IMG/VR virus record: IMGVR_UViG_3300009008_000004
Coordinates: 82,004-146,003 of that record
Reading direction: 5' to 3' (one strand)
Length of the DNA: 64,000 bases
Source: a virus
Taxonomy: Duplodnaviria > Heunggongvirae > Uroviricota > Caudoviricetes
Position numbers and translations under genes: made by a program. The notes under the pieces were generated by a model. The model was not told the origin of the DNA. It did no database searches and saw nothing but the letters and a program-made list of their open reading frames with translations. Shown here one piece after another: positions 5,601-23,358 of this stretch. Within the stretch, counting starts at the first letter, position 1; each line of letters starts with the position of its first letter.

Positions 5601-7256
5601 CTACCCCGTCGGTGGGTAAATATAGACCCATTCACCAGTTTTAGGGCTACGGTACTTCCGCAAGTATTTGTGCATACGGATACCCTTGGGCTGCTTCACC
5701 TTCAAAACGTTCCGCATGCTCTCATTCAACTGGTGCTTCTTCCGGGCAACGTTGTACACCCACTGGTCAACTGTAGCCCCGGGTTTACGGTTGAAGATGA
5801 AACCCTTGGGATACGCCGTTGTATACCGTTTGATAAGCACCTTTCGCTTCTCAGGAGGCCGATGGGATTGGCCACCCAATCGACGTACGCGGGCCTCGGC
5901 CTGGTGCACACGTTCCGGGTTCCAATGCCCATCCATTGAGAAGAACGCGGTAGCATTCTTCAGGTCGAGGCCTTCTGCCCCTGCACCAGAGATAAGGACA
6001 ACCTTCTTCTTGCCGGCCTTGAAGTCTGCAATGTCTACATCCCTACTATCGCGAGTCACCTTCTTACCCCCGATAGTTCTACCAGTACCAGCAAATACCC
6101 CAAAAGGAACTCCCCGCTGTTGCAGACCAGCCGCGGCAACGTCCAACCCTCCCTTGATGAGATTACTGTAGACAACAGCCTTCCCATCCGGCGTCTCCTT
6201 CAGATGGTTTTGGAGGTCATCCAGCAGTTTTTTTGTCTTAGGGGTCAACTCAGCAGACTGTGCCTTTGTGTACTCCGGGTTGGCAGAGGAGATATCGTTC
6301 AATGCCCGGCGGGCGTGGATGATCTTCCCAAACACATGAGCAAGCTGCTGTGGAGAGAGGTTAGTCTCTCCCTTAGCAATCATCTTCTTGATTGGGCCCA
6401 GCTTATCCATGACGTAGTCGTAGTAGAGCTTTTGCTCCTTTGACATTGGAACCCGAACAGTTTCCACCTGCTTTGCAGGCATGCTCTTTCCGACATCTTT
6501 ACTTGTTCGTACGTCAACGACGGGCGTGACATAATGTGCAATCTCGCCCGGATTCACGAGAGCTTTGATATCTTTCTTACCACCCCAAAAACCCTTCTCC
6601 TTTCCAATAGTACGCATGTACCTTTGTTTGAAGAGAGACTTGGACATAAATTGCCCCCCGGTCGCAATGTTGACCAGAGTAGCAATCTCCGCAGGACTGT
6701 TATTCACCGGACTCGCAGTTAGCCCAATGAAGTTCTTACTGTACTGCCGGGCCTGAAGTGCTGCCTTATGGGTACGTGATCGCTCAGAGCGCAGCTTATG
6801 GAACTCATCGAAAACCAGGGTATCAGCGCCACTCCGGCGGATGAGGCCAATGGGGTCCCGACGGAACATATCGTAAGAGATGACCGTGTAATCTGCTGCC
6901 GGAGTTATCTCATCGATATAATGGATGTTGTCGTTGGGGTCCTTGTTGGCCGCAGCCTTTGACCCAACAACCTGGTGGGAAGACTGCGTAAACTTCTGGA
7001 TACCTTCCTTCACGAAGTTGGTCTTCAAACCAGCCGGCACAACTACAAGGGCTTTGTTCGCACGTCCGGCAGCCTTAGCTTTTTCAAAAGCAAAGATTGC
7101 AGTAGCCGTCTTCCCAGTACCAGTGGCATGCGCAAGAATCACTTGCCCCTGGTTGAAGAACTTATTGACAGCCGCCTGCTGATGCGGGTAGGGCTTGAAC
7201 CCTTCCTTTACCCCGGCTACCTTAGTTTGCCCAAGGAATTGTGCAAGCTTGTCCAT
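5601..7256 (-). CDS. SNF2-family (SF2) helicase/translocase
   Basis: 551 aa. Motifs PHQ, HATGTGKT, FDEFH, LTASP, ISGAGAEGLDL, WNP...QAEARVRRLG. N-terminal KLA/KVA leader. Confidence 0.92.
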   Translation of the reverse strand: MDKLAQFLGQTKVAGVKEGFKPYPHQQAAVNKFFNQGQVILAHATGTGKTATAIFAFEKAKAAGRANKALVVVPAGLKTNFVKEGIQKFTQSSHQVVGSKAAANKDPNDNIHYIDEITPAADYTVISYDMFRRDPIGLIRRSGADTLVFDEFHKLRSERSRTHKAALQARQYSKNFIGLTASPVNNSPAEIATLVNIATGGQFMSKSLFKQRYMRTIGKEKGFWGGKKDIKALVNPGEIAHYVTPVVDVRTSKDVGKSMPAKQVETVRVPMSKEQKLYYDYVMDKLGPIKKMIAKGETNLSPQQLAHVFGKIIHARRALNDISSANPEYTKAQSAELTPKTKKLLDDLQNHLKETPDGKAVVYSNLIKGGLDVAAAGLQQRGVPFGVFAGTGRTIGGKKVTRDSRDVDIADFKAGKKKVVLISGAGAEGLDLKNATAFFSMDGHWNPERVHQAEARVRRLGGQSHRPPEKRKVLIKRYTTAYPKGFIFNRKPGATVDQWVYNVARKKHQLNESMRNVLKVKQPKGIRMHKYLRKYRSPKTGEWVYIYPPTG

Positions 7257-7613
7257 TTACCTCGCCTCTACCCGCTTAATAGCAGCAATCAATCTCGCAC
7301 GAGCAGGAGTATCAGGGAGAGACTTAAAGAAAGCTTTATCTCCGCCCCCCGAAGGAGTTTTCTTTATGGCAGTAACCATTTTCCTTACGAACGGCGCACC
7401 GCCCATTTCCCTAAACTTCGTTGTTACCTCAGAAGGGGAAAGCCCCCGCCGTTTCCAGCTATCACCCACTTTCCCTACAGAACGGGTAGTGGCCTCAAGA
7501 AGCCCCTTCTTGTGGGGATTCTTGGCTAAAGCCAGCGTCCGCCGCACCACCTGCTTCAAGCCAGCAGCCTTCTCCAGCTCATCTGTAAAAGCTCCCATAA
7601 TAAGTTCTTCCAT
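7257..7613 (-). CDS. Probable nested in-frame product (118 aa) from an internal start
   Basis: AAGGAGG-ATATT-ATG at 7625-7611, in frame with 8420 (807 nt downstream). The N-terminus mirrors the leader of the 1440 gene. Confidence 0.55.
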   Translation of the reverse strand: MEELIMGAFTDELEKAAGLKQVVRRTLALAKNPHKKGLLEATTRSVGKVGDSWKRRGLSPSEVTTKFREMGGAPFVRKMVTAIKKTPSGGGDKAFFKSLPDTPARARLIAAIKRVEAR

Positions 7614-8420
7614 AATATCCTCCTTAGATGCTTTCTTTACCTTACCTTTCTTATTAGCTGCGAGGACTTTCTGGAGAACCCCGCCAAGTACCATCGTACC
7701 GAATGCCCCGGCTGCCCCACGACCAACAGTCTTGGGCAACCACTTTACTGGCTGCTTGAATGCTTTTCCGTAGGCTTTCGGGGAGAACAGCTTTTTCTGC
7801 TTGGAGACATCAGCAATGACTGTTTCCGAGAGCCCCTTCCCGGCACCGGTCAGCCCACCAAGAGCAGCAGCTACAGGAAGGATGCTCTTTGGTTTCTTCC
7901 CCTTCTTAGCACCCTTTGTATTGGACTTCATCTTATGGGCAAGCCCCAGAGCCAAAGCAGATGCAAGAGCGGTTGCTGTAGCACCCCGGCCAAGGGCCTT
8001 TGGGCCAAAGTGTTTGCCCCAATTTGGCTTCTTCTTAGCATAAGCTTCCCAGGCACCCTCAATGCCACCCTTGCCGTAGCCGTAAATGGCTCCCGAGCCG
8101 ATAACCTTTGCGATGCCCTTCTTTGTCCGCTTTTTCTCACCCGACTTGATATCCGCCATGCCACTTGCGAAAACAGGGAAAGTTGCAGTGCCGCCGATGA
8201 GACCGCCGAGCCCGCGACCGGTAGCGCGTCCTTTGAGCGCACGCAGCATCTTGCTGCCCTTAAATGCCCCGCGAACAGGCTTCCCGGTCAACTTCATCTT
8301 AGTTGCATCTGCAGCGACCTGGTCCACAGCTCCTTTGGGGATATCGCCGATGATAGACTTTGTAGCACCGCCTACCAGCCCGGCATACAGGGCGTCTCGT
8401 TTTTTACTTCTCTTCGCCAT
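7257..8420 (-). CDS. Multi-glycine-zipper, Lys-rich membrane-type protein (putative ejected head protein)
   Basis: 387 aa. Six or more GxxxG hydrophobic helices separated by Lys clusters. Internal leader-like MEELIMGAFTDELEKAA. Confidence 0.7.
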   Translation of the reverse strand: MAKRSKKRDALYAGLVGGATKSIIGDIPKGAVDQVAADATKMKLTGKPVRGAFKGSKMLRALKGRATGRGLGGLIGGTATFPVFASGMADIKSGEKKRTKKGIAKVIGSGAIYGYGKGGIEGAWEAYAKKKPNWGKHFGPKALGRGATATALASALALGLAHKMKSNTKGAKKGKKPKSILPVAAALGGLTGAGKGLSETVIADVSKQKKLFSPKAYGKAFKQPVKWLPKTVGRGAAGAFGTMVLGGVLQKVLAANKKGKVKKASKEDIMEELIMGAFTDELEKAAGLKQVVRRTLALAKNPHKKGLLEATTRSVGKVGDSWKRRGLSPSEVTTKFREMGGAPFVRKMVTAIKKTPSGGGDKAFFKSLPDTPARARLIAAIKRVEAR

Positions 8421-9264
8421 CGGTCAGCCTCTTGGGGGCGTTGGGTCCAGACATTTGAATAATCTTGCCCCCACGCGCCTGCAACTCCTCCGCTGAAGGG
8501 GGAGTATCTTCACTAAAGCGTAACATAATCATCTCGAGCATTTGAAGTGCTGTGTCTGTAGAAGACTTGGCCCGTTCCTGCAAATCAAGTCCGCGAAGAG
8601 CGATATCCGCCCACGTCTTCGCAGACCCCGTAGTCTTTACGTTGGTTGGATCTGCAGACGCCACCGCCCTGAAATTAGAGAAGGCCTGGTCAGTCATGTA
8701 CTTCAGCATATCCTCGGGCTTCAACTGCAGAGGTTCCCCCACAGCCAAAAGCGCGGCATGTGGATCGGAAGCTACATAGACAGACCAAAGGCTGCTCCCA
8801 TGCTGGTACTTATCAAGGAGGGCCTTCCAATCATCCAGATCCAGCAGATCTTTATTCCAAAAGTAATGGGCGTAATATCCGATTACTTCCTCGTCAATTT
8901 CCTTTCCGAAATACTTAGAGATGACATCTCGAATGACATCAACTGGGACTTCCCCGAGCAACATGGCTTCCAGCTTCTGCCTAAGATTCCCGGTACCCAA
9001 TAGGGTAGATGCCGCGACAACCTTTGGTCGCCGGACTACAAGGTCGTATAGCTTATTGTCTCGTAGCCAGCGAATACAGTGGAGTGCGTTGGGGTCGAAC
9101 GGCTTTGGCTTGGTTTTCTGAAGTTCCTGCCGCAGTACTTCCAGGTAGACCTCGTCAGGAGTAGGGAATCTACGGAGGGCTACCGCACTTTGGATATCCT
9201 CATTGGAAAACTGCGGCTCCATCGACAACAGAGCCTTTATCCAGTATTCGCATGGTAGCCGCAT
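8404..9264 (-). CDS. Hypothetical helical protein (small-terminase candidate, weak)
   Basis: 286-aa clean ORF in the packaging block upstream of terL. No recognisable motif. Confidence 0.6.
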   Translation of the reverse strand: MRLPCEYWIKALLSMEPQFSNEDIQSAVALRRFPTPDEVYLEVLRQELQKTKPKPFDPNALHCIRWLRDNKLYDLVVRRPKVVAASTLLGTGNLRQKLEAMLLGEVPVDVIRDVISKYFGKEIDEEVIGYYAHYFWNKDLLDLDDWKALLDKYQHGSSLWSVYVASDPHAALLAVGEPLQLKPEDMLKYMTDQAFSNFRAVASADPTNVKTTGSAKTWADIALRGLDLQERAKSSTDTALQMLEMIMLRFSEDTPPSAEELQARGGKIIQMSGPNAPKRLTDGEEK

Positions 9265-9267
9265 CCA

Positions 9268-11262
9268 CTATCCTGCCTGTACCTGTTCGCGGCCCTTCAA
9301 CTTCAAGAGCTCCAGCCCCGCGGTAATTGCCTCAAGGGCGTTGATCGCACGAACAGCTGCATCTTCGGGAACATCCGAAACACCCAGCTGAGATGCAAGC
9401 AGAAGCTCACAGACTTTCGAACTGGCCTCTTCCAGGAACGGGAGGTAATCGATGAAGATTGCCATGTTCTCAGGAGTGATGAAATTGAGCCCAAGTACAG
9501 CATCTACCGTATTCTCCTCCTGGAGAGCGGTCGCCACCTTGAGCAGGGAATAGTCTTCTTCTGGGAAGTGGGGCATCGCCTCAACTGCTGCGACCTTGGC
9601 CAACTCCTGCTGTGCTTCGTAGGTCTCAATAATCCGCGGTGCACGAACAGTAGTTCTTCCAAAGACCTGCGCTTCCGCCAGCTTGGTTTTACCAAGTACC
9701 GGGGGCACACCAGCGAGACCCAGGAAGAAAGTAGCCTGCGGTTCTCCAACAAAGGAGGTTTTACCACCGAGCGCCTGCACCGGAGCACCGGAGAGGGTAT
9801 ACTCTCCATCGGAATGTGATATTTCCACCTCAGACCCGCGCAAATTAGCGCTCGCCAGCTTTACTGCCACAGCTTCATTGGTGGCAACTTTGACCTTCTT
9901 CCCAAGAGGAAGGAAGCTCACGAAAGTTTCAGGGTGGGCTGCGTAAAGGCCGGCAGCGAGTTTTACGAAACCATCGGCAGGATCGACGCCTGTAGTAACT
10001 CGGATCTTACCGGAAGTCATTCCGGAATCGTAATGGGCATATTTCCCATCGGACTCTTCGTAGAAACGGATGTTGACCGGCGGGGAGGCAATGGCACCCG
10101 CAGACCCTTCCTTCACAAAGCAACCGCGGCCACGGGGAAGCTCAGTCCACACCATCTCAGTCAACTTCGCAGGCAGGTTATCCGTAGGAGTCCCATAAGC
10201 CTCTTGCACGTAGGAATGCCCGGAGGCAGTCTTGATAAAAAGGCCATCCTGCGGTTTCCCATCCAAGTCTCGTACGTGGGTAAACACGAGAGCAGGCTGA
10301 GAGTGTGTGCTGGAAGTCTGCACCATGTACGCCCCGGAGGTCTTAATCTTCTGCGGCGGGTTTACTTCCTCTGGCGCAACATTGAGATTCCGGATACGAA
10401 CTGCGTACCCCTTAGCATCAGCTTCCTTTCGAAGGGCTTCAGGCAACGCAGCCTGCAACTCACCGGTCAGCTCGTCCACCTGGTCGAAGTAAGCTCTTGT
10501 ACAAGCAGAGGCAAACTTGTAGCCATCCGGAGTTCTTTCTACCAGCACAGCATCCGTCGGAAGATTATTCCGGACAGTGGCTTTGATAGCAGAAGCTTCC
10601 TTGGACTTCGTGGAAAGGAAGTGCTCAACCTTCTCCCGGAAGTGCGGATTCTCCTTGAGACCGTGCAACAGAGTGGGGTCTGAGGAGATAAATTCGGCAA
10701 TCTTCTCCTTCCGCGAAGGGGAGATCGTTTGCCCAACAAGACCGCACAAGGAAGCCGTCTTTACTACACCCTCCCCCGGGGTATCAGGGAACATCCCACT
10801 ACCGGACAAAGTCCCAGTACCAACACCCGCCTGAGTCTGTGAGATGTCAAAGGCCGATGGGGAATAGAGGACAGCATCTACACGCCGCTGAGTAAGCGGG
10901 TAGGCCAAACCGTTTGCCGGATTGATGAAGGTGAGCAGGGGCTTGAGCTTCCGCTTTTCCACAATAAACGGGACGCGGATCCCAGGACCTGTTGAGGGCA
11001 GAGGAGTATTCGGCCCAGTATCCGAAGGACGCAAATCCGGTGCAGACTGCGGAGTGACAGCAAAGAAGCCATAAGCATATCCGCGCTTCTCATCCTGATC
11101 GAGCGTACGTTGGTCAATTCGGTACTGGCCCAGATACCCGGCCTGCTCAAGCAGAGCACTAATCAACTCCTTAGACCAAAGACTCGGATCATCGCTCAGC
11201 TTGGTACGCGGTGCCGCGGTCTTCTCCATGTCCGGTGGAGTAGTCAGAAACAAAGACTCCAT
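9268..11262 (-). CDS. Large head-associated protein with 13 K-x-A motifs
   Basis: 664 aa. AGGAGG SD, leader ...PPDMEKTA, repeated KxA[SA] at apparent domain boundaries. Confidence 0.7.
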   Translation of the reverse strand: MESLFLTTPPDMEKTAAPRTKLSDDPSLWSKELISALLEQAGYLGQYRIDQRTLDQDEKRGYAYGFFAVTPQSAPDLRPSDTGPNTPLPSTGPGIRVPFIVEKRKLKPLLTFINPANGLAYPLTQRRVDAVLYSPSAFDISQTQAGVGTGTLSGSGMFPDTPGEGVVKTASLCGLVGQTISPSRKEKIAEFISSDPTLLHGLKENPHFREKVEHFLSTKSKEASAIKATVRNNLPTDAVLVERTPDGYKFASACTRAYFDQVDELTGELQAALPEALRKEADAKGYAVRIRNLNVAPEEVNPPQKIKTSGAYMVQTSSTHSQPALVFTHVRDLDGKPQDGLFIKTASGHSYVQEAYGTPTDNLPAKLTEMVWTELPRGRGCFVKEGSAGAIASPPVNIRFYEESDGKYAHYDSGMTSGKIRVTTGVDPADGFVKLAAGLYAAHPETFVSFLPLGKKVKVATNEAVAVKLASANLRGSEVEISHSDGEYTLSGAPVQALGGKTSFVGEPQATFFLGLAGVPPVLGKTKLAEAQVFGRTTVRAPRIIETYEAQQELAKVAAVEAMPHFPEEDYSLLKVATALQEENTVDAVLGLNFITPENMAIFIDYLPFLEEASSKVCELLLASQLGVSDVPEDAAVRAINALEAITAGLELLKLKGREQVQAG

Positions 11263-11283: not shown

Positions 11284-12519
11284 TTACCCACTCAACTTCA
11301 CAATACTCGAAAGCGCTATTCCTGATTCGAGTGATGCAATCCAATCCGCCGTTGGCACCCCGGTTATTGGGGGCGCGCCAGGTGGTACCGGTGCGGGGGG
11401 CATATGTACATGTGCGGCCAACATACCCATCAACACCTTCCCAAGGACCGCGCTCTCAAGCGCCACATTACTGCCCAAGTTTATAGTCCCCGAGTCTATC
11501 GTGCAACTCCCTGTCCCAGAGGACAGAGATATACCGGACAGGGCCTCTACAACAAGTTCTTGCACTGTAGCCTTCAAAGAACCGTCAGATTCTCCTGTCA
11601 GTTTCCCGGCAGAACCAAACTCCACCACGAACCCGTTCTCGGCGTAGACGTGACCCGTATCCATCTCCCAATGCATATCCCCGGTAACCTTTGTAAAGAC
11701 GTTACCAAGAGTATCTACCTGGAAAGTGTAGGTACACCCAGTGTTCTCAGGATCAACGCAAATGGAGATAAGTGTTGTCTCCTGCGTATTCCCCGGATAG
11801 GACCCGGAACCAAACTTGTATGCCTTGTCTCGAGTAGAGCCGAATAACTCATCTTGGCTCGGCGAGAACTGGTCATCCCCGGCACGGCCGGCACGTACTT
11901 TGATAGTTACATGCTGGTCCTCAACATCTTTTTTCATACCCCAGTAGAGCTGGGCAGCAGTTTTATCATCACCGGTTTGGATAGTTCCATGCTTCCAAAA
12001 AAGAGTGCCAAGCAAGGATTTGGCCTCATAGTTCTGGAAGAAGTGCCGGATGAAGTTATCGATAGGGATGTAAAGAGTCTGCGCAAGGGGAGAACTTCCG
12101 ATCTGCAGGGTACCACCTTTACGCAGTAGGACTGTAGCGCCCCGCGAGTTGTAGAGGGCGATGTCCCCAGGAGCCAGGCCCATCCTCCCACCAAGGAAAT
12201 CATCGTCCGGTTCTGCTGCGTCATCCTCTGAGAAGGCTCCATGGAGGGGGGCACTCAACCACCCCATTACAACAGGGTCGGATCCATCGGACATGAGGTA
12301 GACGAAACACTTAGACCCTACCTCCGGGACAAAGTCGATATGGGTCCCAGTTACCACATTGGTGTACAGGGTGCCGTACGGAACGTTGCTGTAGATATCA
12401 GACTCCCCGGAAAGGTCGACCTCGACATCTACTGTGCGGGTACCTGGGTATACCTGCACGATGGTACCGAGTACTACTGCTGCTGATGTTGTTCCACTCT
12501 GCTGAGGACCGCTTACCAT
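11284..12519 (-). CDS. Baseplate central spike (gpV/gp5/gp138-like)
   Basis: 411 aa. N-terminal OB-fold pattern (GTIVQVYPGTRTVDV...VPEVGSKCFV...VVMGW), beta-repeat C-half, terminal HxH (AHVH) apex motif. Confidence 0.8.
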   Translation of the reverse strand: MVSGPQQSGTTSAAVVLGTIVQVYPGTRTVDVEVDLSGESDIYSNVPYGTLYTNVVTGTHIDFVPEVGSKCFVYLMSDGSDPVVMGWLSAPLHGAFSEDDAAEPDDDFLGGRMGLAPGDIALYNSRGATVLLRKGGTLQIGSSPLAQTLYIPIDNFIRHFFQNYEAKSLLGTLFWKHGTIQTGDDKTAAQLYWGMKKDVEDQHVTIKVRAGRAGDDQFSPSQDELFGSTRDKAYKFGSGSYPGNTQETTLISICVDPENTGCTYTFQVDTLGNVFTKVTGDMHWEMDTGHVYAENGFVVEFGSAGKLTGESDGSLKATVQELVVEALSGISLSSGTGSCTIDSGTINLGSNVALESAVLGKVLMGMLAAHVHMPPAPVPPGAPPITGVPTADWIASLESGIALSSIVKLSG

Positions 12520-18500: not shown

Positions 18501-18789
18501 TAAGAGTGGGGAGGCCCACTATCTTTGCCTTTGGTACCCGATCGATAGTTTTCCCAGTAGCCTTATCTACAAGAGAAAAATCCCCGTGCACGCCAACAGA
18601 CCAGGTACGCCCGTTACGCCTTGCCGTTTCCTGGCTTTTGATGTCGTCAACCGACTTGGGGTCGGAGACCAATACACTGTTTAGCTTCAAGACGTGTTTC
18701 TTGCCTACAAGCGGGAAGAAGCTCTTTATCTTGTCGGCTACTTTCTGCTGAAGGTTATCAGTAAGAGTCTGCGGATTAAGGACAAGCAT
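12541..18789 (-). CDS. rpoBC: Single-chain fused beta-beta' DNA-directed RNA polymerase
   Basis: beta motifs: TPEG, FEDGLL, GDKLAGRHGNKGV, NPLGVPGRMN, QRVGELG. beta' motifs: KRDPVLH, YNADFDGDQ (14547-14527), CxxxxGLCxxCYG, SIGEPATQLAMRVFH. Start revised to 18789 because the ATG at 18825 overlaps the -10 box. Confidence 0.95.
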   Translation of the reverse strand: MLVLNPQTLTDNLQQKVADKIKSFFPLVGKKHVLKLNSVLVSDPKSVDDIKSQETARRNGRTWSVGVHGDFSLVDKATGKTIDRVPKAKIVGLPTLTRRYSFIIDGKEYQTDHVWRLKSGVYSRIAATGEPEIMFNLKKGFNQRGFRLILDPNKKNFSFKYASAKVPLYPVLSALGVSDGAMEKAWGKDLFNAAKTSPRDKQAALRKLLTSLKDPVPATEAGVIDAVRSRFADTELRPDSTALTLGKPYATVNAEPLLKASTNLLEIHQGKREPDNRDALPFKDLLGIEDLLPDRLDRARNRVARKMKNNLDRKDKVREIFASDIFSGPLLSFFRESSVANQTPQTNPVSMLSRYLGTTLLGADVGAIGSAFGVTADAKAADPTQLGVLDPVHTPEGDRAGISLKLTTDARRKDGAVTIPAYNTKTKKLELVTPLQLAQAVVSFPDQYRKEKGGWVPVTKKVSAQTPEDLKAVVDPAKVDYVLPSATTMFSPMTNLVPFLQNDDGTRVEMAVRHMEQALPLKNREPPLIQTHSRSLDEPGRTHERAWAAFAAHSSPVSGKVTRITKDGITVTGKDGKRHTVQLYDNFPLNELQAYLSSEPAVAVGDTVKTGEIIADTNFTKDGTLALGTNLRVGYLPYKGLVFEDGLLISESASKKLTSVHMHKPSIFMDRDYVLNKKKFTTLFPEAMSTENRGKLDDDGVIKVGEVVEPGDTVVAAAKKAPMTPEKALMKGIHRSLVREYTDRSVVWDKGVRGEVVDVVRRGKYIEVHVRADFPAQPGDKLAGRHGNKGVVALVLPDDEMPRDKEGNAVDIVMNPLGVPGRMNAGQVLETSLSHVAIHEGSPLAVRNFQADRSTRIIKVKGHWRTVKTSAKGTKKVWIEPYEYERDYRSIVDDMLDARGLSEEAELFDDNGKALGKQLVGHQYIIKLNHQAEKKAAARSWGPGYEYTINMEPKGGGKHGAQRVGELGLFAMLAHGAVNNIREMQTIKSDQSQDDIWTAVQLGHPLPRPQVPFAFEKFLAYLKVLGLDVEREGDVLTVLPFTDKQVKQLSNGELKDPGKILRAKDLRPEAGGLFDEKITGGVGGKHFSHFALAEAFPNPLFERPIMALLGLKHDTFSKLVSGELGMDKDGNVVPAEEATRIGPRATLGRALKELDIPTELRKAEKSLEGAKDSNRNQLNRKVKYLRALKRADNSADVYMQGNVLVLPPNLRPITVLDDGNLNRGDLNQLYKELSLSNSRLAEMPPETPDEELAKLRAEVYGGITALAGLVGPDRERLDIPKGILDIIAGKSPKTGYFMEQLVKRKQDMSARGVIVPDQELQLDEVGMPEATAMELFRPFVMQHLVRGGMRPLQAKDIILNRRPEARIALDAVLKERPVLMKRDPVLHKYGIMAFNVRIKGDKEIHIHPLVCSGYNADFDGDQVSLFVPVSQAAVKEAYDMLPSRNLLSAATGQPMFVPDKEGLVGLYLLSRMKGTTSKKYASADALLKAAENREVRWDVGVKVGGTATTAGRELLKKKIPAKLHKHLGTGKEWAFHKQSLRAILKDVAQKTPQEYPQFAQTLKDLGFGHAHKIGFSFNLDAFKVLDKIRDKTLKEVEPKVAAIKKQAKLPRAERDAKIVDLYTKASAKMQKEALASLEKDDNPLWIMSRAGVKPNWEQIKQIVLARMMVSDAAGKPIPAAITGSYGSGLSLHDYWLSSGGIRRGIISKTQEVQDPGAITKQVVKTTMGITLTENDCKTSKGMHVPVTDLSVLDRTLANNVKVRGETLRAGSTITPDTVAKLRQAKVSKILVRSPLKCQAKKGLCQKCYGLDPSGNPAPIGENVGVIASQSIGEPATQLAMRVFHTGGAATGGAGLVDGIERLKQVLQMPQKLKGSAILSKNAGVVNSISKSPVGGWDVKVGSEQHHVPASRKLKVTKGTRIPKGGALSSGPINPRELLGLTNVSTVQNYLVDELGKLYDPEKIRHRHLEVIVRALTDVAEVRESGDHPDYLPGDIVPVRAIQSWNSENGKKDTVKYTPVLRGTNILPFHLHDDWLTQLNYKHLRDVLKQAGSQQGISHLHGEHPIPGIVYGAEFGKGEKGTY

Positions 18790-18823
18790 TTTTTTCGCAC
18801 CCCATGACGGCACTTTCCGCTCC

Positions 18824-18853
18824 ATGATATTGGATGGGGGGTAGTAGCGTCAA
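18824..18853 (-). promoter_or_regulatory. sigma70-type promoter TTGACG-N18-TATCAT for the RNAP gene
   Basis: -35 at 18853-18848, -10 at 18829-18824. Same N18 spacing as the 3518 and 23315 promoters. Confidence 0.6.
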
Positions 18854-18867: not shown

Positions 18868-18877
18868 CTGGTATAAG
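18868..18877 (+). promoter_or_regulatory. CTGnTATAAG promoter-like element, copy 1
   Basis: CTGGTATAAG upstream of the plus-strand small ORFs. Same pattern as 23349-23358. Confidence 0.5.
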
Positions 18878-18932: not shown

Positions 18933-19046
18933 ATGGTAGACAGCCACGACGGAGGGACAACCTCCCTCGACCACTTCGCCGACGGATTGGCCGTTGACGA
19001 AGACGAAGACCTTGGAGATTGGGTTGACGAAGAGGACGACGAGTAA
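18933..19046 (+). CDS. 37-aa ultra-acidic peptide (below the ORF-track cutoff)
   Basis: MVDSHDGGTTSLDHFADGLAVDEDEDLGDWVDEEDDE: 16 D/E and no K/R. AAGGAG SD 6 nt upstream. Confidence 0.65.
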   Translation: MVDSHDGGTTSLDHFADGLAVDEDEDLGDWVDEEDDE

Positions 19047-19052
19047 CACCCA

Positions 19053-19151
19053 ATGGCGCTGGGGCTATTCCTCGCCGGCCATTTCCTGATTGGTGTCGGT
19101 GTAGAACTAATCTATGAGGCGAAAGATCTCCTCGTAGAAAAAGCCCTATGA
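19053..19151 (+). CDS. 32-aa hydrophobic peptide
   Basis: MALGLFLAGHFLIGVGVELIYEAKDLLVEKAL. Starts 6 nt after the acidic peptide's stop. Weak SD. Confidence 0.4.
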   Translation: MALGLFLAGHFLIGVGVELIYEAKDLLVEKAL

Positions 19152-19173
19152 AGGACCGAAAGCAAATACAACT

Positions 19174-19188: not shown

Positions 19189-19215
19189 GTAAAAGGTACT
19201 TCGTGCGAAAATGTT

Positions 19216-19245
19216 GGGGCCCGGCGCATAGCGCGTTTGGGCCCC
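19216..19245. terminator. Probable bidirectional intrinsic terminator after the portal gene
   Basis: GGGGCCC...GGGCCCC stem with an inner GCGC-ATA-GCGC stem. Flanked by TATTTT (+) and AACATTTT (-). Begins 5 nt past the portal stop. Confidence 0.65.
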
Positions 19246-19249
19246 TATT

Positions 19250-21181
19250 TTACTTCTTACTTGTTAGGGGAGGGGGACCACCGCTGAATTGGTCAACCTG
19301 CATTCTATTTACTTCATCGAGAATTGCAGGGTAAAGGCTTGGAACCTGCTTCTGCAGCTTAATAAGCGCTTTCGGGCGTTGGAAGGAATCCAGAGCAAAT
19401 AGGCTACGGGCAGCCTGCCTTGCCAGGAGTTCAGTCTCCGGGCCGGTAGGGGGCTGAACCTGCGGAGCTTCCGGAGCTGCTGGAGGCATAGCCATATCTT
19501 CTGGACGCGCACCTAATGCCTGCATTTGCTCAGGAGGCAGGCTACCGGGCTGCTGGGGAGCGCCCTGCGGTGCCTGTCCCGGAGGGGCCTGGCCGGGGGG
19601 CACCTGCCCTGGAGGAGGCGGAGGCATCGATTCCTGCATAGCCTTCTGCTGCTCTCCCTGATATTTAGCTGAGATAATTCCAGCCTCTCCGTTGATCTCC
19701 GCGCCGTCGGTAGCGGTCTTCTCGTTGATCTTCCGCATGATATCCAGATCGTTGAAAATCTTCTGCTGTTCCGTATTGAAGTCGAGGTCCCTGGATTCCA
19801 GCAGAGTCTCGGGGCTGATGAGCTTACGGTCGTAAAGCTGGAGGTCATATGCGGCTTTCTGCAATTCGTCTGCCATGCGGAAGGGCTTCTGCCGCACCTC
19901 ACACAGAGGAATGCCGAAAGCATTAGCAATGTCCCTAACGATGAACTTGATCATATGGTGGACATCCTCCCTCATACGGAGGAAAGAGTTCTCCATTGTC
20001 CGCATCGAAACGCTTGACCCACTCCAGCGCAACCCGCCAAAGACAAACTCAGAGGGGACGCCGAGACCCGCGAGAATCTGCTCCTGCAGAACCTTAATCT
20101 CGTTATGGAGCAGAAGCATTTTACCTTGCCCACCAACAACCTGGTGCCCCACCGGATACGGCATTACGGGCATGTAGTTAGGGTCCTTCCTCCAGGTAGT
20201 AATCTCAGACTTTACGTGGTCCTGCCAGTCGAGCAGGTTATACGTGGTATAGGGATCCGCTTTCGGGTCGGAGGTCTGCGGGAAGAAGATACGCATCGGT
20301 ACAATGTGCTCGAGGGCAATCGCTTCCTGCGCTTTCAGCAGAATCCTGTAGTAGAACGCGGTCTTCATTACCGGGGTAATCAGGGGGAGACCCCAGCCGG
20401 CATCATGCCTTGAAATGGATGTTCTACGCAGATGGAATATTGTTCCCGGGCGGAAAACCAGCTTCTTGCCCTTGGCAACAGCGTTGATGAACGCTTGCGG
20501 AATAGTCTGCAGGGTATCCTTCCGACCAACCAGAATAGCGTTCGAGATGGCAGGGGGGATCGTGTACACGTAGATTGTACGCCCAGTTGCGGGGTTATGC
20601 TCAATCTCCATGTAGTTCGGGTTGATCCTGAGGACTCGCAGGTCCTTCAAAGATTTGATGTACTGGTCCTGAACCTTGGCGTACCCACTGTAAGTACACT
20701 TGGGGCAGGTATACATGAACTGGTAAGAACTCCAGGTGTAGTCTGTAGACTCTACCGGAACAGAGTGCCCACATTCCCGGCACACCAACATCTTCCGTAG
20801 TGGGTGGTGGACGTATACAAAAGAGTTCCCGTAGGTATGGTAGTCCATCAGGACCTCTACGAGGAATGCACGAATCTGGAATACTTCCTCAAAGATGTAC
20901 TTGTAGGTGTCGTTTACCCACTCGTTCTCACTCAGATACGCAAGATCCGTAATGGGGTACGCCGAGAGCTTGGCTATCGCTGCATGGATAAGTGGGTCCA
21001 TGACCGCGAAATACTCGCACCATTTGAATTGCGATTTTACGGTACGCGGGAGGTACAGGTTGGAGACATCCGCAAACACATTGGCGTACGGAGCGTAATC
21101 AGTGCTTCCTGCACGAGATCCGTAACCACTGAATCTCCCGCTTGAGCCCGACGCTACATCGTATGGGTTGCTCCCAAACAT
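19250..21181 (-). CDS. Portal protein with Zn-ribbon insertion and Pro/Gln-rich tail
   Basis: 643 aa. Portal-like pattern (IHAAIAKLSAYPIT, DYHTYGNSFV, IFHL...GWGLP, ILAGLGVPSEFV). CRECG...CPKC insert. Located in the head module. Confidence 0.8.
   Translation of the reverse strand: MFGSNPYDVASGSSGRFSGYGSRAGSTDYAPYANVFADVSNLYLPRTVKSQFKWCEYFAVMDPLIHAAIAKLSAYPITDLAYLSENEWVNDTYKYIFEEVFQIRAFLVEVLMDYHTYGNSFVYVHHPLRKMLVCRECGHSVPVESTDYTWSSYQFMYTCPKCTYSGYAKVQDQYIKSLKDLRVLRINPNYMEIEHNPATGRTIYVYTIPPAISNAILVGRKDTLQTIPQAFINAVAKGKKLVFRPGTIFHLRRTSISRHDAGWGLPLITPVMKTAFYYRILLKAQEAIALEHIVPMRIFFPQTSDPKADPYTTYNLLDWQDHVKSEITTWRKDPNYMPVMPYPVGHQVVGGQGKMLLLHNEIKVLQEQILAGLGVPSEFVFGGLRWSGSSVSMRTMENSFLRMREDVHHMIKFIVRDIANAFGIPLCEVRQKPFRMADELQKAAYDLQLYDRKLISPETLLESRDLDFNTEQQKIFNDLDIMRKINEKTATDGAEINGEAGIISAKYQGEQQKAMQESMPPPPPGQVPPGQAPPGQAPQGAPQQPGSLPPEQMQALGARPEDMAMPPAAPEAPQVQPPTGPETELLARQAARSLFALDSFQRPKALIKLQKQVPSLYPAILDEVNRMQVDQFSGGPPPLTSKK
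19545..19630 (-). repeat. PPGQ-type coding repeats in the portal C-terminus
   Basis: PPPPPGQVPPGQAPPGQAPQGAPQQPG. Confidence 0.8.
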
Positions 21182-21189
21182 CTACACTC

Positions 21190-21723
21190 CTATGTCTTCT
21201 TCGAGATCAAACGTCCCAGGGCAGCTCCCGCTGCTTCCCCGCCGGACCATGTCGCCAGGGAGGGAAGGAATTTCATTCGTGCGCTCGCCAACCAGCCCAG
21301 GGAACCACCCAACATACGTCCGACGTGTTGGCCTTTCTGGCCCTTCTTCGCACGCGCAGCAGCACGAGCCGCTTCTAAAGCCTGTCCTACAAAGAAAATC
21401 CGTCCAAGGCTCGGAGCCGCAGCAGAAGGAACACCCTTCTTGTAAGCAAGCCGGGGAAACCACTTCCCCTTGCGAGTCGCAATCCCCTTGATTTCTTTCG
21501 AGGGACCCAAGGCTGTCCAACTCTTCTTTGCAGCCTCTCCGGGATTCTTGGCATATGCCCGCACTACCTGGGGTATGGTGTGCTGCTTGAGATTTCCGGG
21601 GAGTACCCTTTTACCATGATGCTTCGGCTTTCTGGAGTAGAATCCTTCGAATTGCCCTCGAAAGGGGTTCCACCCAGCGTGCTTAGCGAGCAGCGATCTT
21701 GTTCGCGAGAGCGAGATGCTCAT
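21190..21723 (-). CDS. Basic protein with C-terminal glycine zipper (start revised to 21723)
   Basis: 177 aa from MSISLSRTRSLLAKHAG. GAGG SD 7 nt upstream. GGSLGWLA...GGEAAGAALG tail. Confidence 0.65.
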   Translation of the reverse strand: MSISLSRTRSLLAKHAGWNPFRGQFEGFYSRKPKHHGKRVLPGNLKQHTIPQVVRAYAKNPGEAAKKSWTALGPSKEIKGIATRKGKWFPRLAYKKGVPSAAAPSLGRIFFVGQALEAARAAARAKKGQKGQHVGRMLGGSLGWLASARMKFLPSLATWSGGEAAGAALGRLISKKT

Positions 21724-22315
21724 CTTGCAGCCTCTTATATTCAAGCAGGTAATTCTGCAAATCCCGGTGCCGAAGTACCTGCGCAGCGAGGACAGCATCC
21801 TTTGGCAAGGACCGGTCTGTCCCGTTCAAAATCTTTTCCATCTTATCATATAAGTCCCGAGATACCACCTTCCGTATGCGTCTACCCAGGAAACGCAATT
21901 GCTTTGGTGGATTAGTGAAACCTTCTGCCAACAATATTCCACCGAGATATTTTTCAACATCGGAGGAGTAAGGGTGCGCCCGCAGCTGCTGCATAACGTG
22001 CACCCCATGAGTAGCCGCAGCTACAGAAGGTTTTTGTAAAACACCGAATTGTGGTGCTACAAAACTAAAAGGAAGTACTACCTTCTCGAATACATACCAA
22101 TCATCATAAGGTGCCTTGCTGGTATGTACTGTCCTACATGCATTGATCTTCGATTTATTGAGTAAGCTTGGTTCCTGAGAAAAGCGGGAGCGCAGTTCCT
22201 GCCAAATAGTTTCAGGCTCCCACCCAAGATACTCAGGCCCAAATTCCCGAAGACAGAGGACATGTAGGGCGATTGGGTGTGTTAGCGGAGACGTAAGGAA
22301 AGTAGCCGAGTTCAT
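21683..22315 (-). CDS. Hypothetical head-module protein
   Basis: 210-aa clean, globular-looking ORF in the operon between the EKxA-array gene and the portal. Confidence 0.7.
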   Translation of the reverse strand: MNSATFLTSPLTHPIALHVLCLREFGPEYLGWEPETIWQELRSRFSQEPSLLNKSKINACRTVHTSKAPYDDWYVFEKVVLPFSFVAPQFGVLQKPSVAAATHGVHVMQQLRAHPYSSDVEKYLGGILLAEGFTNPPKQLRFLGRRIRKVVSRDLYDKMEKILNGTDRSLPKDAVLAAQVLRHRDLQNYLLEYKRLQDEHLALANKIAAR

Positions 22316-22318
22316 GCA

Positions 22319-23257
22319 TTAACACTTCTTCGCTATTTTTGCGAGCGAGACCTGGGTGTCTTTGGGAAGGCTGTTGAATACCGCAACAGGAGCTTCCTTG
22401 AACTGGTTTACAAACGAAGCCGGGAACTGCTCTGCGAAAGCATCAGAACCCGCCAACTTTTCGATATCGAGATCGGTAACTACGAGGGACCCGAGATGGA
22501 ACACCTTACTGGCAACCTTAGCTATCTCAGCCAGCTTTTCCACACCCTGAGCACCGAACACGGTAGTTACCGGATCGGGGATACCGCTCCCCCAATGCTG
22601 GAACATGCCGCTCTCCTGGTCCAGGTGATTGACAAAGGCAAGAAGGGCCGGTGGGGACATCGCGATCTTCTCAAGCTGCTCAAAAGCCCACTCGCGTGTA
22701 TGCGTATCCATATAAGGACCGCGCATCTGCATACCGCGGGCGAAGGAGTCGGGGTCTACCGGGGTGGTAGCCGCTACCTTCTCCAGAGGAGCATCGAAGT
22801 CTGCTTCTACCTCTTCTTCGTACCCACTGTATGCTTCTTCTTCCCGCTGCTGCTGAATCGCATGGGCAACCTTCTCGAAGCCCTCGGGGGCGGCTGCCCT
22901 TACATCTTCCCCCGCCGCCAGCTGGTGGAGTTCTTCGGGAGCCCGCAGACCGTATGTCTCGCAAGCATCCTCCAGGCGACGAGCAGCCAGTTTGCGCAGA
23001 GGCTCGGGAAGATTGTGGCCGGTACGAGTGAAGTACATCGTACTCAACCAGACATTTCCGCGGTCCACCATGGCGAACTTACGCATGGAATGCATCCCAT
23101 CAGCGTAGGTCAGTGCCCAGTGATCTGAAGGAAGTTCTTCCGTAGGAGCCTGAGCTTCTTTTACAAAAGGTGGCAAGACTTCGGGGTTGGGGAACAGTTC
23201 CCGTACAAGTGCGCCACCATCATCAGTTAGATCGTAACAAGCAAAACGCCAATCCAT
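22319..23257 (-). CDS. Head-module protein with an array of EKxA motifs (scaffold/core candidate)
   Basis: 312 aa. GGGAGG SD. EKVA x2, EKIA, EKLA x2, plus KVA, KIA, KLA and KFA. First gene after a perfect TTGACA promoter. Confidence 0.75.
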   Translation of the reverse strand: MDWRFACYDLTDDGGALVRELFPNPEVLPPFVKEAQAPTEELPSDHWALTYADGMHSMRKFAMVDRGNVWLSTMYFTRTGHNLPEPLRKLAARRLEDACETYGLRAPEELHQLAAGEDVRAAAPEGFEKVAHAIQQQREEEAYSGYEEEVEADFDAPLEKVAATTPVDPDSFARGMQMRGPYMDTHTREWAFEQLEKIAMSPPALLAFVNHLDQESGMFQHWGSGIPDPVTTVFGAQGVEKLAEIAKVASKVFHLGSLVVTDLDIEKLAGSDAFAEQFPASFVNQFKEAPVAVFNSLPKDTQVSLAKIAKKC

Positions 23258-23285
23258 AGGTTTCCTCCCAGCAGATACCGTAACA

Positions 23286-23315
23286 ATACTATTTGTGTGC
23301 CCGTTCCTCTGTCAA
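23286..23315 (-). promoter_or_regulatory. sigma70-type promoter TTGACA-N18-TAGTAT
   Basis: -35 at 23315-23310, -10 at 23291-23286, in the divergent intergenic region. Confidence 0.7.
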
Positions 23316-23348
23316 GCAGGATGTTGCCCCGGAAAGCATTGAAGGAAG

Positions 23349-23358
23349 CTGTTATAAG
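23349..23358 (+). promoter_or_regulatory. CTGnTATAAG promoter-like element, copy 2
   Basis: CTGTTATAAG 42 nt before the first ATG of the replication operon. No -35 at 17-18 nt. Confidence 0.55.

What the first reader, a model, noticed from the sequence alone, without database searches (positions are those of the whole stretch)
5601..23358. Possible inverted transcription programme: packaged phage RNAP plus SNF2 early, host RNAP late
Seen: the RNAP and SNF2 genes sit inside the head and packaging block. The RNAP gene has the same sigma70-type promoter class as the head and baseplate operons, and its revised N-terminus has QKVA at residues 15-18, similar in position to the leaders. The plus-strand replication operon instead has a CTGnTATAAG element with no -35. 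Established: N4 uses a virion RNAP early and host sigma70 RNAP late, and phiKZ-like phages package a multisubunit vRNAP. Inference: this phage makes its fused two-barrel RNAP late, packages it with a SNF2 translocase, and uses it on TATAAG promoters. I know of no demonstration of this for cellular-like beta-beta' phage RNAPs. The alternative is that the RNAP is made early by the host enzyme and is not packaged.
Basis: inference. Interest (0 to 1): 0.8.

Follow-up and report, generated by a model that had tools for sequence, protein, structure and literature searches.

The report
Phage-packaged bacterial-type RNA polymerase with sigma
This 183-kb phage encodes a single-chain bacterial-type RNA polymerase in an operon with virion-structure and DNA-packaging genes, and most likely carries it into the cell with its own sigma factor to read about 27 phage-specific GGTATAAG promoters; which enzyme reads the late promoters is not settled.

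Summary
The observation mostly holds. A 2082-aa fused beta-beta' RNAP (12541-18789, minus) lies between the portal gene and an operon that runs spike-like gene, three unknowns, SNF2 and TerL. It has a TTGACG-N18-TATCAT promoter.

The same TTGACR-N18-TAnnAT class heads the portal and head operons. It sits at the same three sites in two relatives, with an 18-nt spacer in 9 of 9 cases.

The "TATAAG" element is really GGTATAAG: 27 copies on the plus strand, 2 on the minus, 2.4 expected.

Salmonella phage Arash has a 30%-identical RNAP and the same motif (30 versus 1 by strand). Its published virion proteome holds the RNAP, the SNF2 orthologue and a sigma factor.
That sigma's orthologue, sigmaB (regions 2-4), is encoded among this phage's minus-strand virion genes and is found in all five large relatives tested.
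- **Not supported.** The RNAP "QKVA leader" is not conserved. SNF2 is missing from the operon in three relatives.
- **Untested.** Host RNAP as the late enzyme.

Best reading: a capsid-delivered holoenzyme starts infection, as in poxviruses and phage N4. This is a new variant of a known strategy. Other notes of this scan cover the same genome; none found it on other DNA.

The parts
12541..18789 (-). Single-chain beta-beta' RNA polymerase, 2082 aa from the true start. NADFDGD motif and clamp helices are present. Rifampicin-pocket residues are changed.
   Evidence: Pfam domains. Start fixed by the alignment of 20 homologues. beta' aligns to bacterial beta' at E 1e-51 with NADFDGD. beta aligns at E 9e-32 with D516->P, H526->R, S531->T in E. 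coli numbering. It is the only RNAP of this type in the genome.
18824..18853 (-). Sigma70-like promoter of the RNAP-to-TerL operon: TTGACG, 18 nt, TATCAT.
   Evidence: Conserved at the same place in relatives L013 and L014.
18870..18877 (+). GGTATAAG promoter, back to back with the RNAP promoter. It drives two tiny plus-strand genes.
   Evidence: Its reverse complement is invariant in four aligned relatives.
18933..19151 (+). Micro-operon: a 37-aa very acidic peptide (18933-19046) and a 32-aa hydrophobic peptide (19053-19151).
   Evidence: The same acidic and hydrophobic pair occurs in L014.
19205..19245 (.). G+C-rich hairpin with T-rich tails on both strands. It looks like a two-way terminator that separates the portal operon, the micro-operon and the RNAP operon.
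   Evidence: Read directly from the sequence. One search lists other terminator-like hairpins on the minus strand nearby (19188-19174, 19157-19142), not this one.
19250..21181 (-). Portal protein.
   Evidence: 31% identity to Arash portal gp204. Weak phrog_9232 hit.
21683..23257 (-). Two unknown genes (210 and 312 aa) at the head of the portal operon.
   Evidence: ORFs. Synteny in relatives. No family hits.
23286..23315 (-). Sigma70-like promoter of the portal operon: TTGACA, 18 nt, TAGTAT.
   Evidence: Conserved in L013 and L014.
23349..23358 (+). CTGTTATAAG, the GGTATAAG-class promoter of the replication operon.
23403..36657 (+). Replication and recombination operon: SF2 helicase, UDG, DnaB, primase, family A DNA polymerase, RecA, Cas4-like nuclease.
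11284..12519 (-). 411-aa gpV/gp5-like OB-fold spike protein, directly downstream of the RNAP.
   Evidence: Atlas feature search: score 0.96, and all ten best hits that carry a Pfam family share Phage_base_V or its clan. This is a lead, not an alignment. The gene is conserved after the RNAP in relatives.
7257..11262 (-). Three conserved proteins of unknown function (664, 286, 387 aa). The 664-aa protein has a conserved N-terminal K-x-A.
   Evidence: No Pfam or PHROG hits. Synteny. K14 and A16 are invariant in four relatives.
5601..7256 (-). 551-aa SNF2-family ATPase; the whole protein aligns to solved remodeller ATPase cores and no other domain was hit.
   Evidence: Pfam SNF2-rel_dom and Helicase_C. 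Orthologue of Arash gp217. PDB hits to CHD1, DDM1, ISWI, SsoRad54 and vaccinia NPH-I.
5187..5597 (-). 136-aa Pro/Lys-rich protein of unknown function, in the same operon.
3529..5184 (-). Large terminase subunit, the last gene of the RNAP operon.
   Evidence: GpA_ATPase. 28% identity to Arash gp1.
3489..3518 (-). Sigma70-like promoter of the head-morphogenesis operon: TTGACA, 18 nt, TACGAT.
   Evidence: Conserved in L013 and L014.
3..3461 (-). Start of the head operon: 258-, about 170-, 154- and 104-aa ORFs, then a protease-like protein (3-1103, which runs beyond the window).
   Evidence: phrog_18299 head maturation protease at E 5e-7, and orthologue of Arash gp222. Scaffold-like and major-head-protein-like genes follow outside the window.

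Best explanation
The phage makes its single-chain, bacterial-type RNAP late, from an operon shared with a spike-like gene and the terminase. It loads the enzyme into the capsid together with a phage sigma70-family factor, sigmaB. SigmaB is encoded just past the window's right end, among the minus-strand virion genes. In this lineage an SNF2 ATPase is loaded too.

On infection, this injected holoenzyme, which should be insensitive to rifampicin, starts transcription at about 27 plus-strand GGTATAAG promoters. These promoters drive the small early genes and the replication genes. SigmaB supplies the recognition: a -10 element TATAAG with an extended GG and a weak A-rich upstream element.

The virion genes, including the RNAP and sigmaB genes, lie on the other strand. 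They sit behind promoters of another type, here a sigma70-like TTGACR-N18-TAnnAT class. The host holoenzyme is the most likely reader of that class, but this step is open.

Shown:
- gene order
- both promoter classes and their conservation
- domain content of the proteins
- virion presence of the orthologues in phage Arash

Inferred:
- packaging in this particular phage
- which enzyme reads which promoter
- timing of expression
- the role of SNF2 (helping promoter opening, recycling or release on injected DNA)
For: **Operon.** The RNAP sits behind a terminator-like hairpin. It is tightly linked to a spike-like gene, three conserved unknowns, SNF2 and TerL. The order is conserved in L013-L015, and in G001, G002 and G004 apart from SNF2.

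**One polymerase.** There is only one RNAP of this type and no alpha subunit.

**GGTATAAG.**
- 27 on the plus strand, 2 on the minus, 2.4 expected; GGTATAAT occurs once.
- Sites lie about 15-60 nt before plus-strand start codons.
- The site next to the RNAP gene is invariant in four relatives.
- The motif has the same strand bias in Arash (30 versus 1; control 2 and 3) and is enriched in G001-G003.

**SigmaB.**
- It has regions 2, 3 and 4 (hhalign 98.3%).
- It is on the virion-gene strand.
- It is present in 5 of 5 large relatives.
- It is the orthologue of Arash gp10.
- Motif-positive phages, including distant Arash, share a K-A/G-Q/K-R-F/L ... YQN/NQN stretch at the region 2.4/3.0 border. 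The two motif-negative relatives lack it.

**Virion proteome of Arash** (PMC10585845), in unique peptides:
- RNAP gp206: 128
- RNAP gp216: 40
- SNF2 orthologue gp217: 38
- sigma gp10: 24
- second sigma gp196: absent from the table
- gp1 terminase: not found under the label searched, and not among the first rows of the table that were read

**Predicted complex.** For sigmaB region 2 against the phage beta' clamp helices, the model supports binding but does not show it.
- Score 0.72, best control 0.01.
- That mark was reached by 58 of 80 solved complexes and by 2 of 110 mismatched pairs.
- The runs agree in at least 74% of contacts; partner pLDDT is at least 73.
- Sigma-clamp-helix complexes have been solved, so the pass may reflect likeness only.

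**Clamp helices.** They differ from E. coli at R275, E295 and A302. From my own knowledge, these are sigma70-binding positions.

**Rifampicin pocket.** It is altered.
Against: - There are no data from this phage itself: no virions, no RNA.
- The Arash preparation listed 116 proteins, including metabolic enzymes, so some carry-over is likely. Its authors note that abundant enzymes may simply persist.
- GGTATAAG is not enriched in Vibrio phage D69, G004 or G005, although they have the RNAP, and G004 and G005 also have sigmaB.
- SNF2 is missing from the operon in G001, G002 and G004.
- No capsid-targeting signal was found on the RNAP.
- The sigma signature that tracks the motif rests on seven sequences.
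- Host RNAP carrying sigmaB could read GGTATAAG instead.
Confidence: 0.6

Rival explanations
1. Fully self-contained programme. The phage RNAP reads both promoter classes. It uses sigmaB for GGTATAAG and another factor for the virion-gene promoters. That factor could be the phage's second sigma (sigmaA), an unrecognised protein, or host sigma70 bound to the phage core. Host RNAP core is not needed at any stage, as in phiKZ.
For: - The phage encodes a second sigma, sigmaA (196 aa, regions 2 and 4), about 500 nt downstream of a GGTATAAG site.
- The 18-nt spacer in 9 of 9 promoters is unusually strict for host sigma70.
- Late promoters differ between lineages: they are absent in L015 and in G001-G005, and a CTAAAAT-like motif recurs in Arash. 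This is easier to explain by phage factors than by a universal host sigma70.
- A GNAT gene sits next to sigmaB. Published work links phage GNATs to host RNAP inactivation (PMC7824862).
Against: - SigmaA has no relative among 5.8 billion proteins and none in five related genomes. Yet the TTGACR-N18 class is conserved in L013 and L014.
- The clamp helices differ at the sigma70-binding positions, which argues against host sigma70 on the phage core.
- The promoter looks like a textbook host promoter, matching 10 of 12 consensus positions.
Confidence: 0.22
2. T7-like order with no functional packaging. Host sigma70 RNAP first transcribes the RNAP and sigmaB genes from the sigma70-like promoters. 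The new phage holoenzyme then reads the GGTATAAG promoters. RNAP seen in virions is carry-over.
For: - The RNAP gene has a sigma70-like promoter that host RNAP could use at time zero.
- The Arash virion list looks contaminated: 116 proteins, including ribonucleotide reductase and primase.
Against: - It would express portal, head, spike and terminase operons before replication genes, because they share the promoter class and the operon.
- In Arash the RNAP, SNF2 and sigma have 24-128 unique peptides, in the range of portal (32) and capsid (30). Likely contaminants have 2-3.
- The sigmaB operon has no clear sigma70-like promoter.
Confidence: 0.1
3. Sigma appropriation. SigmaB redirects the host core enzyme to GGTATAAG promoters, as T4 gp55 and SPO1 gp28 do. 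The phage RNAP serves another purpose.
For: - SigmaB is a complete sigma70-family protein.
- Published reviews hold that phage-encoded sigma factors usually act on host core, and that phages carrying their own RNAP lack sigma (PMC7824862 and PMC13282480).
Against: - SigmaB occurs with the phage RNAP in 5 of 5 relatives and is packaged with it in Arash.
- The motif is shared by phages that probably infect different hosts.
- The phage clamp helices are predicted to bind sigmaB (with its caveat).
Confidence: 0.08

Closest known systems
Salmonella phage Arash (OQ632216; PMC10585845)
   Same: - Orthologous portal, RNAP, SNF2 helicase, terminase, protease-like protein and sigma.
- The RNAP sits next to the portal gene.
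- The same strand-specific GGTATAAG motif, 30 versus 1.
- RNAP, helicase and sigma were detected in virions by mass spectrometry.
   Different: - RNAP identity is only about 30%.
- The RNAP is split into two genes (1525 and 606 aa) separated by an opposite-strand block.
- There is no TTGACR-N18 class; a CTAAAAT-like motif recurs before its virion genes.
- The paper proposes no promoters and no transcription programme.
phiKZ and AR9 virion RNAPs (jumbo phages)
   Same: A multisubunit-type RNAP is made late, packaged, injected and used on early promoters (about 28 in phiKZ). A helicase is packaged too, and an SNF2-type helicase is genomically linked to the RNAP genes (PMC13282480, PMC7824862).
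   Different: - Those enzymes are split into 4-5 very divergent pieces and have no sigma homologue. A second, non-virion RNAP does the late work.
- Here there is one chain that is far closer to bacterial beta and beta' (E 9e-32 to 1e-51, against 2e-8 for entry 7s00, which I take from memory to be the AR9 non-virion RNAP).
- Here there is a true sigma70-family factor and only one RNAP.
Phage N4
   Same: Virion RNAP early and host sigma70 RNAP late.
   Different: - The N4 virion RNAP is a single-subunit T7-like domain within a 3500-aa protein.
- It reads hairpin promoters.
- A second phage RNAP handles middle genes.
Poxvirus early transcription system
   Same: The logic is the same. A cellular-type RNAP is packaged with an early-specific initiation factor that is itself made late, and with the SNF2-family ATPase NPH-I (my own knowledge). 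The phage SNF2 gives a weak hit to NPH-I at E 3e-6.
   Different: This is a eukaryotic virus with many separate subunits and no sigma. The likeness is analogy, not kinship.
E. coli RapA (HepA), the RNAP-associated SNF2 ATPase
   Same: An SNF2 ATPase linked to a bacterial-type RNAP. RapA has been suggested in print as a model for phage RNAP-linked helicases (PMC7824862).
   Different: The phage protein is a bare 551-aa ATPase core. Its best solved matches are CHD1, DDM1, ISWI and SsoRad54, and RapA is not among the hits at E <= 1e-5.

Membership tests
Bacterial-type multisubunit RNAP (beta and beta') | beta catalytic barrel region (Rpb2_6/7) and beta' Rpb1 domains in bacterial order | tested here: met
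   Pfam hits along the whole chain. Alignment to bacterial beta at E 9e-32 and to beta' at E 1e-51.
Bacterial-type multisubunit RNAP (beta and beta') | Catalytic NADFDGD motif | tested here: met
   YNADFDGDQ aligned to the bacterial motif. D330-D334 are invariant in 21 homologues.
Bacterial-type multisubunit RNAP (beta and beta') | alpha-dimer assembly platform | tested here: not met
   No RNA_pol_A_bac match in the complete genome, while the control genomes matched 14 of 14. The beta-beta' fusion may replace it; that is inference.
Virion-packaged phage RNAP (N4, phiKZ, AR9 kind) | Enzyme physically present in virions | not testable with these tools
   Shown only for the orthologues in phage Arash by mass spectrometry.
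Virion-packaged phage RNAP (N4, phiKZ, AR9 kind) | Gene expressed with the late or virion genes | tested here: inconclusive
   Operon shared with a spike-like gene and TerL, and no GGTATAAG promoter. There are no expression data.
Virion-packaged phage RNAP (N4, phiKZ, AR9 kind) | A distinct early promoter class read independently of host RNAP (rifampicin-resistant) | tested here: inconclusive
   A distinct, conserved class exists, and the rifampicin pocket is altered at D516, H526 and S531. Resistance itself was not measured.
Sigma70 family (sigmaB) | Regions 2, 3 and 4 in order | tested here: met
   Sigma70_r3 by Pfam. Regions 2-3 align to RpoS and SigA at E 1e-10. The profile aligns across regions 2-4 of a primary-like sigma at 98.3% probability.
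Sigma70 family (sigmaB) | Binds the beta' clamp helices of its core enzyme | tested here: inconclusive
   The model supports binding but does not show it. Score 0.72, best control 0.01. That mark was reached by 58 of 80 solved complexes and by 2 of 110 mismatched pairs. The runs agree in at least 74% of contacts, and partner pLDDT is at least 73. The pass may come from likeness to solved holoenzymes.
SNF2 family ATPase | SNF2-related N lobe plus Helicase_C lobe | tested here: met
   PF00176 at E 3e-26 and PF00271 at E 2e-11. Matches to solved remodeller ATPases.
RapA subfamily | Specific similarity to RapA, including its N-terminal domains | tested here: not met
   Only a 551-aa core. RapA is not among the PDB hits at E <= 1e-5.
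Canonical sigma70 promoter | TTGACA and TATAAT-like hexamers 16-18 nt apart, upstream of an operon | tested here: met
   Three sites match 10 of 12 positions with an 18-nt spacer, 27-34 nt before start codons, and are conserved in two relatives. Recognition by host sigma70 was not tested.
Head-protein N-terminal leader ((E)K-x-A) | Motif conserved near the N-terminus in orthologues | tested here: not met
   - RNAP: not conserved.
- SNF2: partly conserved (TKVAG, EKTGG, LKTGG) in close relatives only, and absent in Arash.
- The 664-aa protein does meet it.

The most novel reading that the evidence does not exclude
This widespread, mostly uncultured phage family carries a complete bacterial-style holoenzyme inside the capsid. 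The core is a single-chain beta-beta' and the specificity factor is a sigma70-family protein made late, often with an SNF2 motor. The phage injects this holoenzyme to read a family-wide GGTATAAG promoter code. That would be a sigma-dependent virion RNAP and a prokaryotic counterpart of the poxvirus strategy. It would contradict the review-level view that phages with their own RNAP have no sigma.
Probability: 0.5. Interest if true: 0.75.

Novelty: new variant of a known kind. Interest (0 to 1): 0.62.

Why it matters
Current reviews divide large phages into two groups: those with their own very divergent, sigma-less RNAPs, and those that only encode sigma factors for the host enzyme (PMC7824862, PMC13282480). 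This family has both. It has a compact one-chain polymerase close to the bacterial enzyme, and a matching sigma.

The RNAP has thousands of homologues in the protein search (2938 at E <= 1e-20), and the closest, near-full-length ones come from uncultured contigs of about 150-190 kb.

If the holoenzyme is packaged and reads GGTATAAG, the finding offers:
- a minimal, alpha-free, single-chain bacterial-type RNAP with a defined promoter, for structural and synthetic work
- a simple rule for annotating early genes in this family
- a testable case of promoter and sigma changing together

A cultured member, Arash on Salmonella Typhimurium, carries the same motif, so the model can be tested directly.

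Tried and rejected
- **Sequencing runs.** I therefore did not use the read-mapping tool.
Largely rejected. SigmaA has no homologue in the large protein collection, in IMG/VR or in five related genomes. The promoter class is nevertheless kept in L013 and L014.
- **General enrichment of sigma70-like promoters.** Not found: 7 against 12.7 expected.
- **A shared late motif for all minus-strand operons.** A k-mer search gave only the reverse complement of GGTATAAG, so the tail and baseplate promoters stay undefined.
- **Arash gp218 as orthologue of the 664-aa protein.** No similarity.
- **Atlas search for the 664-aa protein.** Nothing usable.
- **T7-like RNAP.** A family search found none, but its controls also found none, so this is uninformative.
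- **SNF2 in relatives.** Both the protein search and the Pfam search gave zero first-look candidates in G001, G002, G004 and G005. I checked the operon by tblastn for G001, G002 and G004, where the flanking genes matched and SNF2 did not. For G005 no query gene matched at all in the stretch I fetched, so it says nothing.
- **Literature search for the motif.** It returned only primer sequences.

Full report
**Setting**

The window is bases 82004-146003 of a complete 182,719-bp virus record with direct terminal repeats (I measured 119 bp). Almost all virion genes are on the minus strand. Replication genes and small genes are on the plus strand.

**The observation**

The 2094-codon minus-strand ORF 12541-18825 carries beta domains (Rpb2_3, Rpb2_6, Rpb2_7) followed by beta' domains (Rpb1_1, 2, 4, 5). 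It is therefore a beta-beta' fusion.

Twenty homologues all begin at its thirteenth codon.

The enzyme is much closer to bacterial RNAP than to known jumbo-phage enzymes:
- Its beta' part aligns to bacterial beta' at E 1e-51, with NADFDGD and the clamp helices in place.
- Its beta part aligns at E 9e-32. PDB entry 7s00, which I take from memory to be the AR9 non-virion RNAP, scores only 2e-8.
- It is the only RNAP of this kind in the genome, and there is no alpha subunit.
- At the rifampicin pocket, D516, H526 and S531 (E. coli numbering) are P, R and T. The enzyme should be insensitive to the drug; this inference rests on known resistance positions.

SNF2 (5601-7256) is a bare 551-aa ATPase core.

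**Gene neighbourhood**

Reading along the minus strand, the order is:
- two unknown genes, then the portal (19250-21181), then a hairpin with T-rich tails on both strands
- the RNAP
- a 411-aa protein that the Atlas places with gpV/gp5 OB-fold spike proteins (a lead, not an alignment)
- three conserved unknowns
- SNF2
- a 136-aa Pro/Lys-rich protein
- TerL (3529-5184)

The genes from the RNAP to TerL are separated by at most 21 nt. After a 67-nt gap comes the head operon, with a protease-like protein, scaffold-like proteins and a major-head-protein-like gene.

This order is kept in relatives whose RNAPs are 77%, 51% and 47% identical. In G001, G002 and G004 the order is RNAP, spike, 664-aa protein, 286-aa protein, TerL, with no SNF2. 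SNF2 is therefore a frequent partner but not a constant one. It is present here, in L013-L015, G003, G007 and Arash.

**Promoter class on the virion strand**

TTGACG-N18-TATCAT lies at 18853-18824. The same pattern, TTGACR-N18-TAnnAT, occurs only twice more on the minus strand of the whole genome:
- at 23315-23286, ahead of the portal operon
- at 3518-3489, ahead of the head operon

All three sites recur at the same places in L013 and L014, always with an 18-nt spacer (9 of 9).

Sigma70-like matches in general are not enriched: 7 found against 12.7 expected. The evidence is position and conservation, not counts.

The class is absent at these places in L015, in G001-G005 and in Arash. The tail and baseplate operons show only weaker sigma70-like matches.

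**Promoter class on the other strand**

Counts for the 8-mer GGTATAAG:

| Genome | One strand | Other strand | Reversed-motif control / expectation |
|---|---|---|---|
| This phage | 27 (plus) | 2 (minus) | 2.4 expected |
| Arash, whole genome | 30 | 1 | 3 and 2 |
| G001 | 13 | 4 | 1 and 0 |
| G002 | 8 | 5 | 0 and 0 |
| G003 | 11 | 4 | 3 and 6 |
| G004 | 2 | 1 | 0 and 0 |
| G005 | 1 | 0 | 4 and 2 |
| Vibrio phage D69 | 6 | 3 | 4 and 7 |

In this phage, GGTATAAT occurs only once. The sites sit shortly before plus-strand start codons. They share C at -2 from the GG, A at about -31/-30, and an AGTAAC-like initiation region.

In the window the sites are:
- 18870-18877
- 23351-23358
- one inside the primase gene, near 28722

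The first site is back to back with the RNAP promoter. It drives a 37-aa acidic peptide and a 32-aa hydrophobic peptide. Its reverse complement is invariant in four aligned relatives.

In Arash, all sites in the roughly 115 kb that I examined lie before genes on the strand opposite to the virion genes, and show a similar downstream GTAAAC.

A motif ending in G rather than T, shared by two phages whose RNAPs are only 30% identical, points to a phage-encoded reader.

**The missing piece: a phage sigma**

The genome encodes two sigma70-family proteins.

*SigmaB* (299 aa; G000:146100-146999, minus strand, about 100 nt past the window's right end):
- It lies among the virion genes.
- It has regions 2, 3 and 4.
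- It is found in all five large relatives tested.
- It is the orthologue of Arash gp10.
- Motif-positive phages, including distant Arash, share a K-A/G-Q/K-R-F/L ... YQN/NQN stretch at the region 2.4/3.0 border. G004 and G005 lack it. With seven sequences this is suggestive only.
- A predicted complex of sigmaB region 2 with the phage clamp helices supports binding but does not show it. The score was 0.72 and the best control 0.01. That mark was reached by 58 of 80 solved complexes and by 2 of 110 mismatched pairs. The runs agree in at least 74% of contacts, and partner pLDDT is at least 73. Such complexes have been solved, so the pass may only reflect likeness.

The phage clamp helices have S, L and G where E. 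coli has R275, E295 and A302 (also noted by another first-stage reader). From my own knowledge, changes at these positions weaken sigma70 binding. That fits a dedicated partner.

*SigmaA* (196 aa, regions 2 and 4, about 500 nt downstream of a GGTATAAG site) has no relative anywhere I searched. It therefore cannot explain a promoter class that is conserved in L013 and L014.

**Experimental anchor**

The Arash paper (PMC10585845) reports a virion proteome. I mapped the orthology.

| Arash protein | Unique peptides | Spectra |
|---|---|---|
| RNAP gp206 | 128 | 3516 (the highest count) |
| RNAP gp216 | 40 | 1210 |
| Helicase gp217 (SNF2 orthologue) | 38 | 1148 |
| Sigma gp10 | 24 | 467 |
| Portal | 32 | 877 |
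| Major capsid protein | 30 | 1333 |

The second sigma, gp196, is absent from the table. The gp1 terminase was not found under the label I searched and is not among the table rows I read. The list holds 116 proteins, so some carry-over is likely. However, the probable contaminants have 2-3 unique peptides.

**Interpretation**

The most economical reading is a capsid-delivered holoenzyme, beta-beta' plus sigmaB, with SNF2 in this lineage. It reads GGTATAAG promoters at the start of infection. The early-specific factor is itself made late and packaged.

That is the logic of poxviruses and, in part, of N4 and phiKZ. The SNF2 even gives a weak hit to vaccinia NPH-I.

Who reads the sigma70-like class is open:
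- The host holoenzyme fits the sequence and the diverged clamp helices.
- The strict 18-nt spacer and the lineage-specific late motifs (CTAAAAT-like in Arash) leave room for a phage factor.

E-K-x-A is nevertheless enriched near the N-termini of minus-strand proteins: 9 of 81, against 2.6% of internal windows. It is conserved in the 664-aa protein.

**What is known already**

Reviews state that phage RNAPs of this type lack sigma, and that phage sigma factors serve the host core. The link between RNAP and SNF2 has been noted for phiKZ-like phages. The Arash authors saw the proteins in virions and suggested a role in early transcription, but described no promoters.

The finding is therefore a new variant of a known strategy. 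It rests on comparative sequence evidence plus one published proteome from a distant relative.

Noticed in passing
window 18933-19046 and 19053-19151 (+): A tiny plus-strand operon lies between the portal and RNAP genes, behind a GGTATAAG promoter. It encodes a 37-aa very acidic peptide and a 32-aa hydrophobic peptide. An acidic and hydrophobic pair sits at the same place in L014. The acidic peptide might be a DNA mimic or a binder of host RNAP; that is speculation.
   Followed up: partly
G000:146100-146999 (-) and G000:150393-152216 (-), just right of the window: SigmaB and a LigD-like protein (3'-phosphoesterase plus ATP-dependent ligase) share an N-terminal basic motif, K-V-(K/R)-A-H-x-R ... 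P-T-I-V-(K/R)-A-H-x-R-K. It occurs nowhere else in the six-frame translation. It is conserved in close sigmaB relatives. It could be a capsid-targeting or DNA-end-binding tag.
   Followed up: partly
G000:6335-6925 (+): SigmaA, a 196-aa sigma with regions 2 and 4 downstream of a GGTATAAG site, has no homologue among 5.8 billion proteins or in five related phage genomes. It looks like a lineage-specific acquisition of unknown role.
   Followed up: partly
window 11284-12519 (-): The gene directly after the RNAP resembles gpV/gp5 OB-fold spike proteins. A cell-puncturing protein and an injected polymerase in one conserved operon may not be a coincidence.
   Followed up: partly
RNAP homologues P0004-P0116: Many homologues are 350-1150 aa longer and carry LAGLIDADG, intein-splicing or homing-endonuclease domains (PF14528, PF14890, PF03161, PF05204). 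The polymerase gene is a frequent target of inteins and homing elements in this family. In Arash and Vibrio phage D69 it is split in two.
   Followed up: no
N-termini of minus-strand proteins genome-wide; in the window at 9268-11262, 58520-60808 and 60808-62397: E-K-x-A within residues 4-45 occurs in 9 of 81 minus-strand proteins, 2 of 100 plus-strand proteins and 2.6% of internal windows. K and A are invariant in four orthologues of the 664-aa protein. It may be the cleavage site of the protease-like protein at 3-1103.
   Followed up: partly
G000:146980-147876 (-): A GNAT acetyltransferase is encoded immediately upstream of sigmaB, apparently in the same operon. Published work links phage GNATs to inactivation of host RNAP.
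   Followed up: no
Arash loci L001 and L005 (OQ632216, before gp2, gp204, gp212, gp216, gp218, gp241): A CTAAAAT(A) motif recurs before virion-strand genes, often right after the reverse complement of GGTATAAG. It occurs 9 times on that strand and 3 on the other. It may be the Arash late promoter, reminiscent of the T4 late TATAAATA.
   Followed up: partly
window 5601-7256 versus L096-L098: SNF2 is absent from the RNAP-to-TerL operon in relatives G001, G002 and G004, although the flanking genes are conserved.
   Followed up: yes
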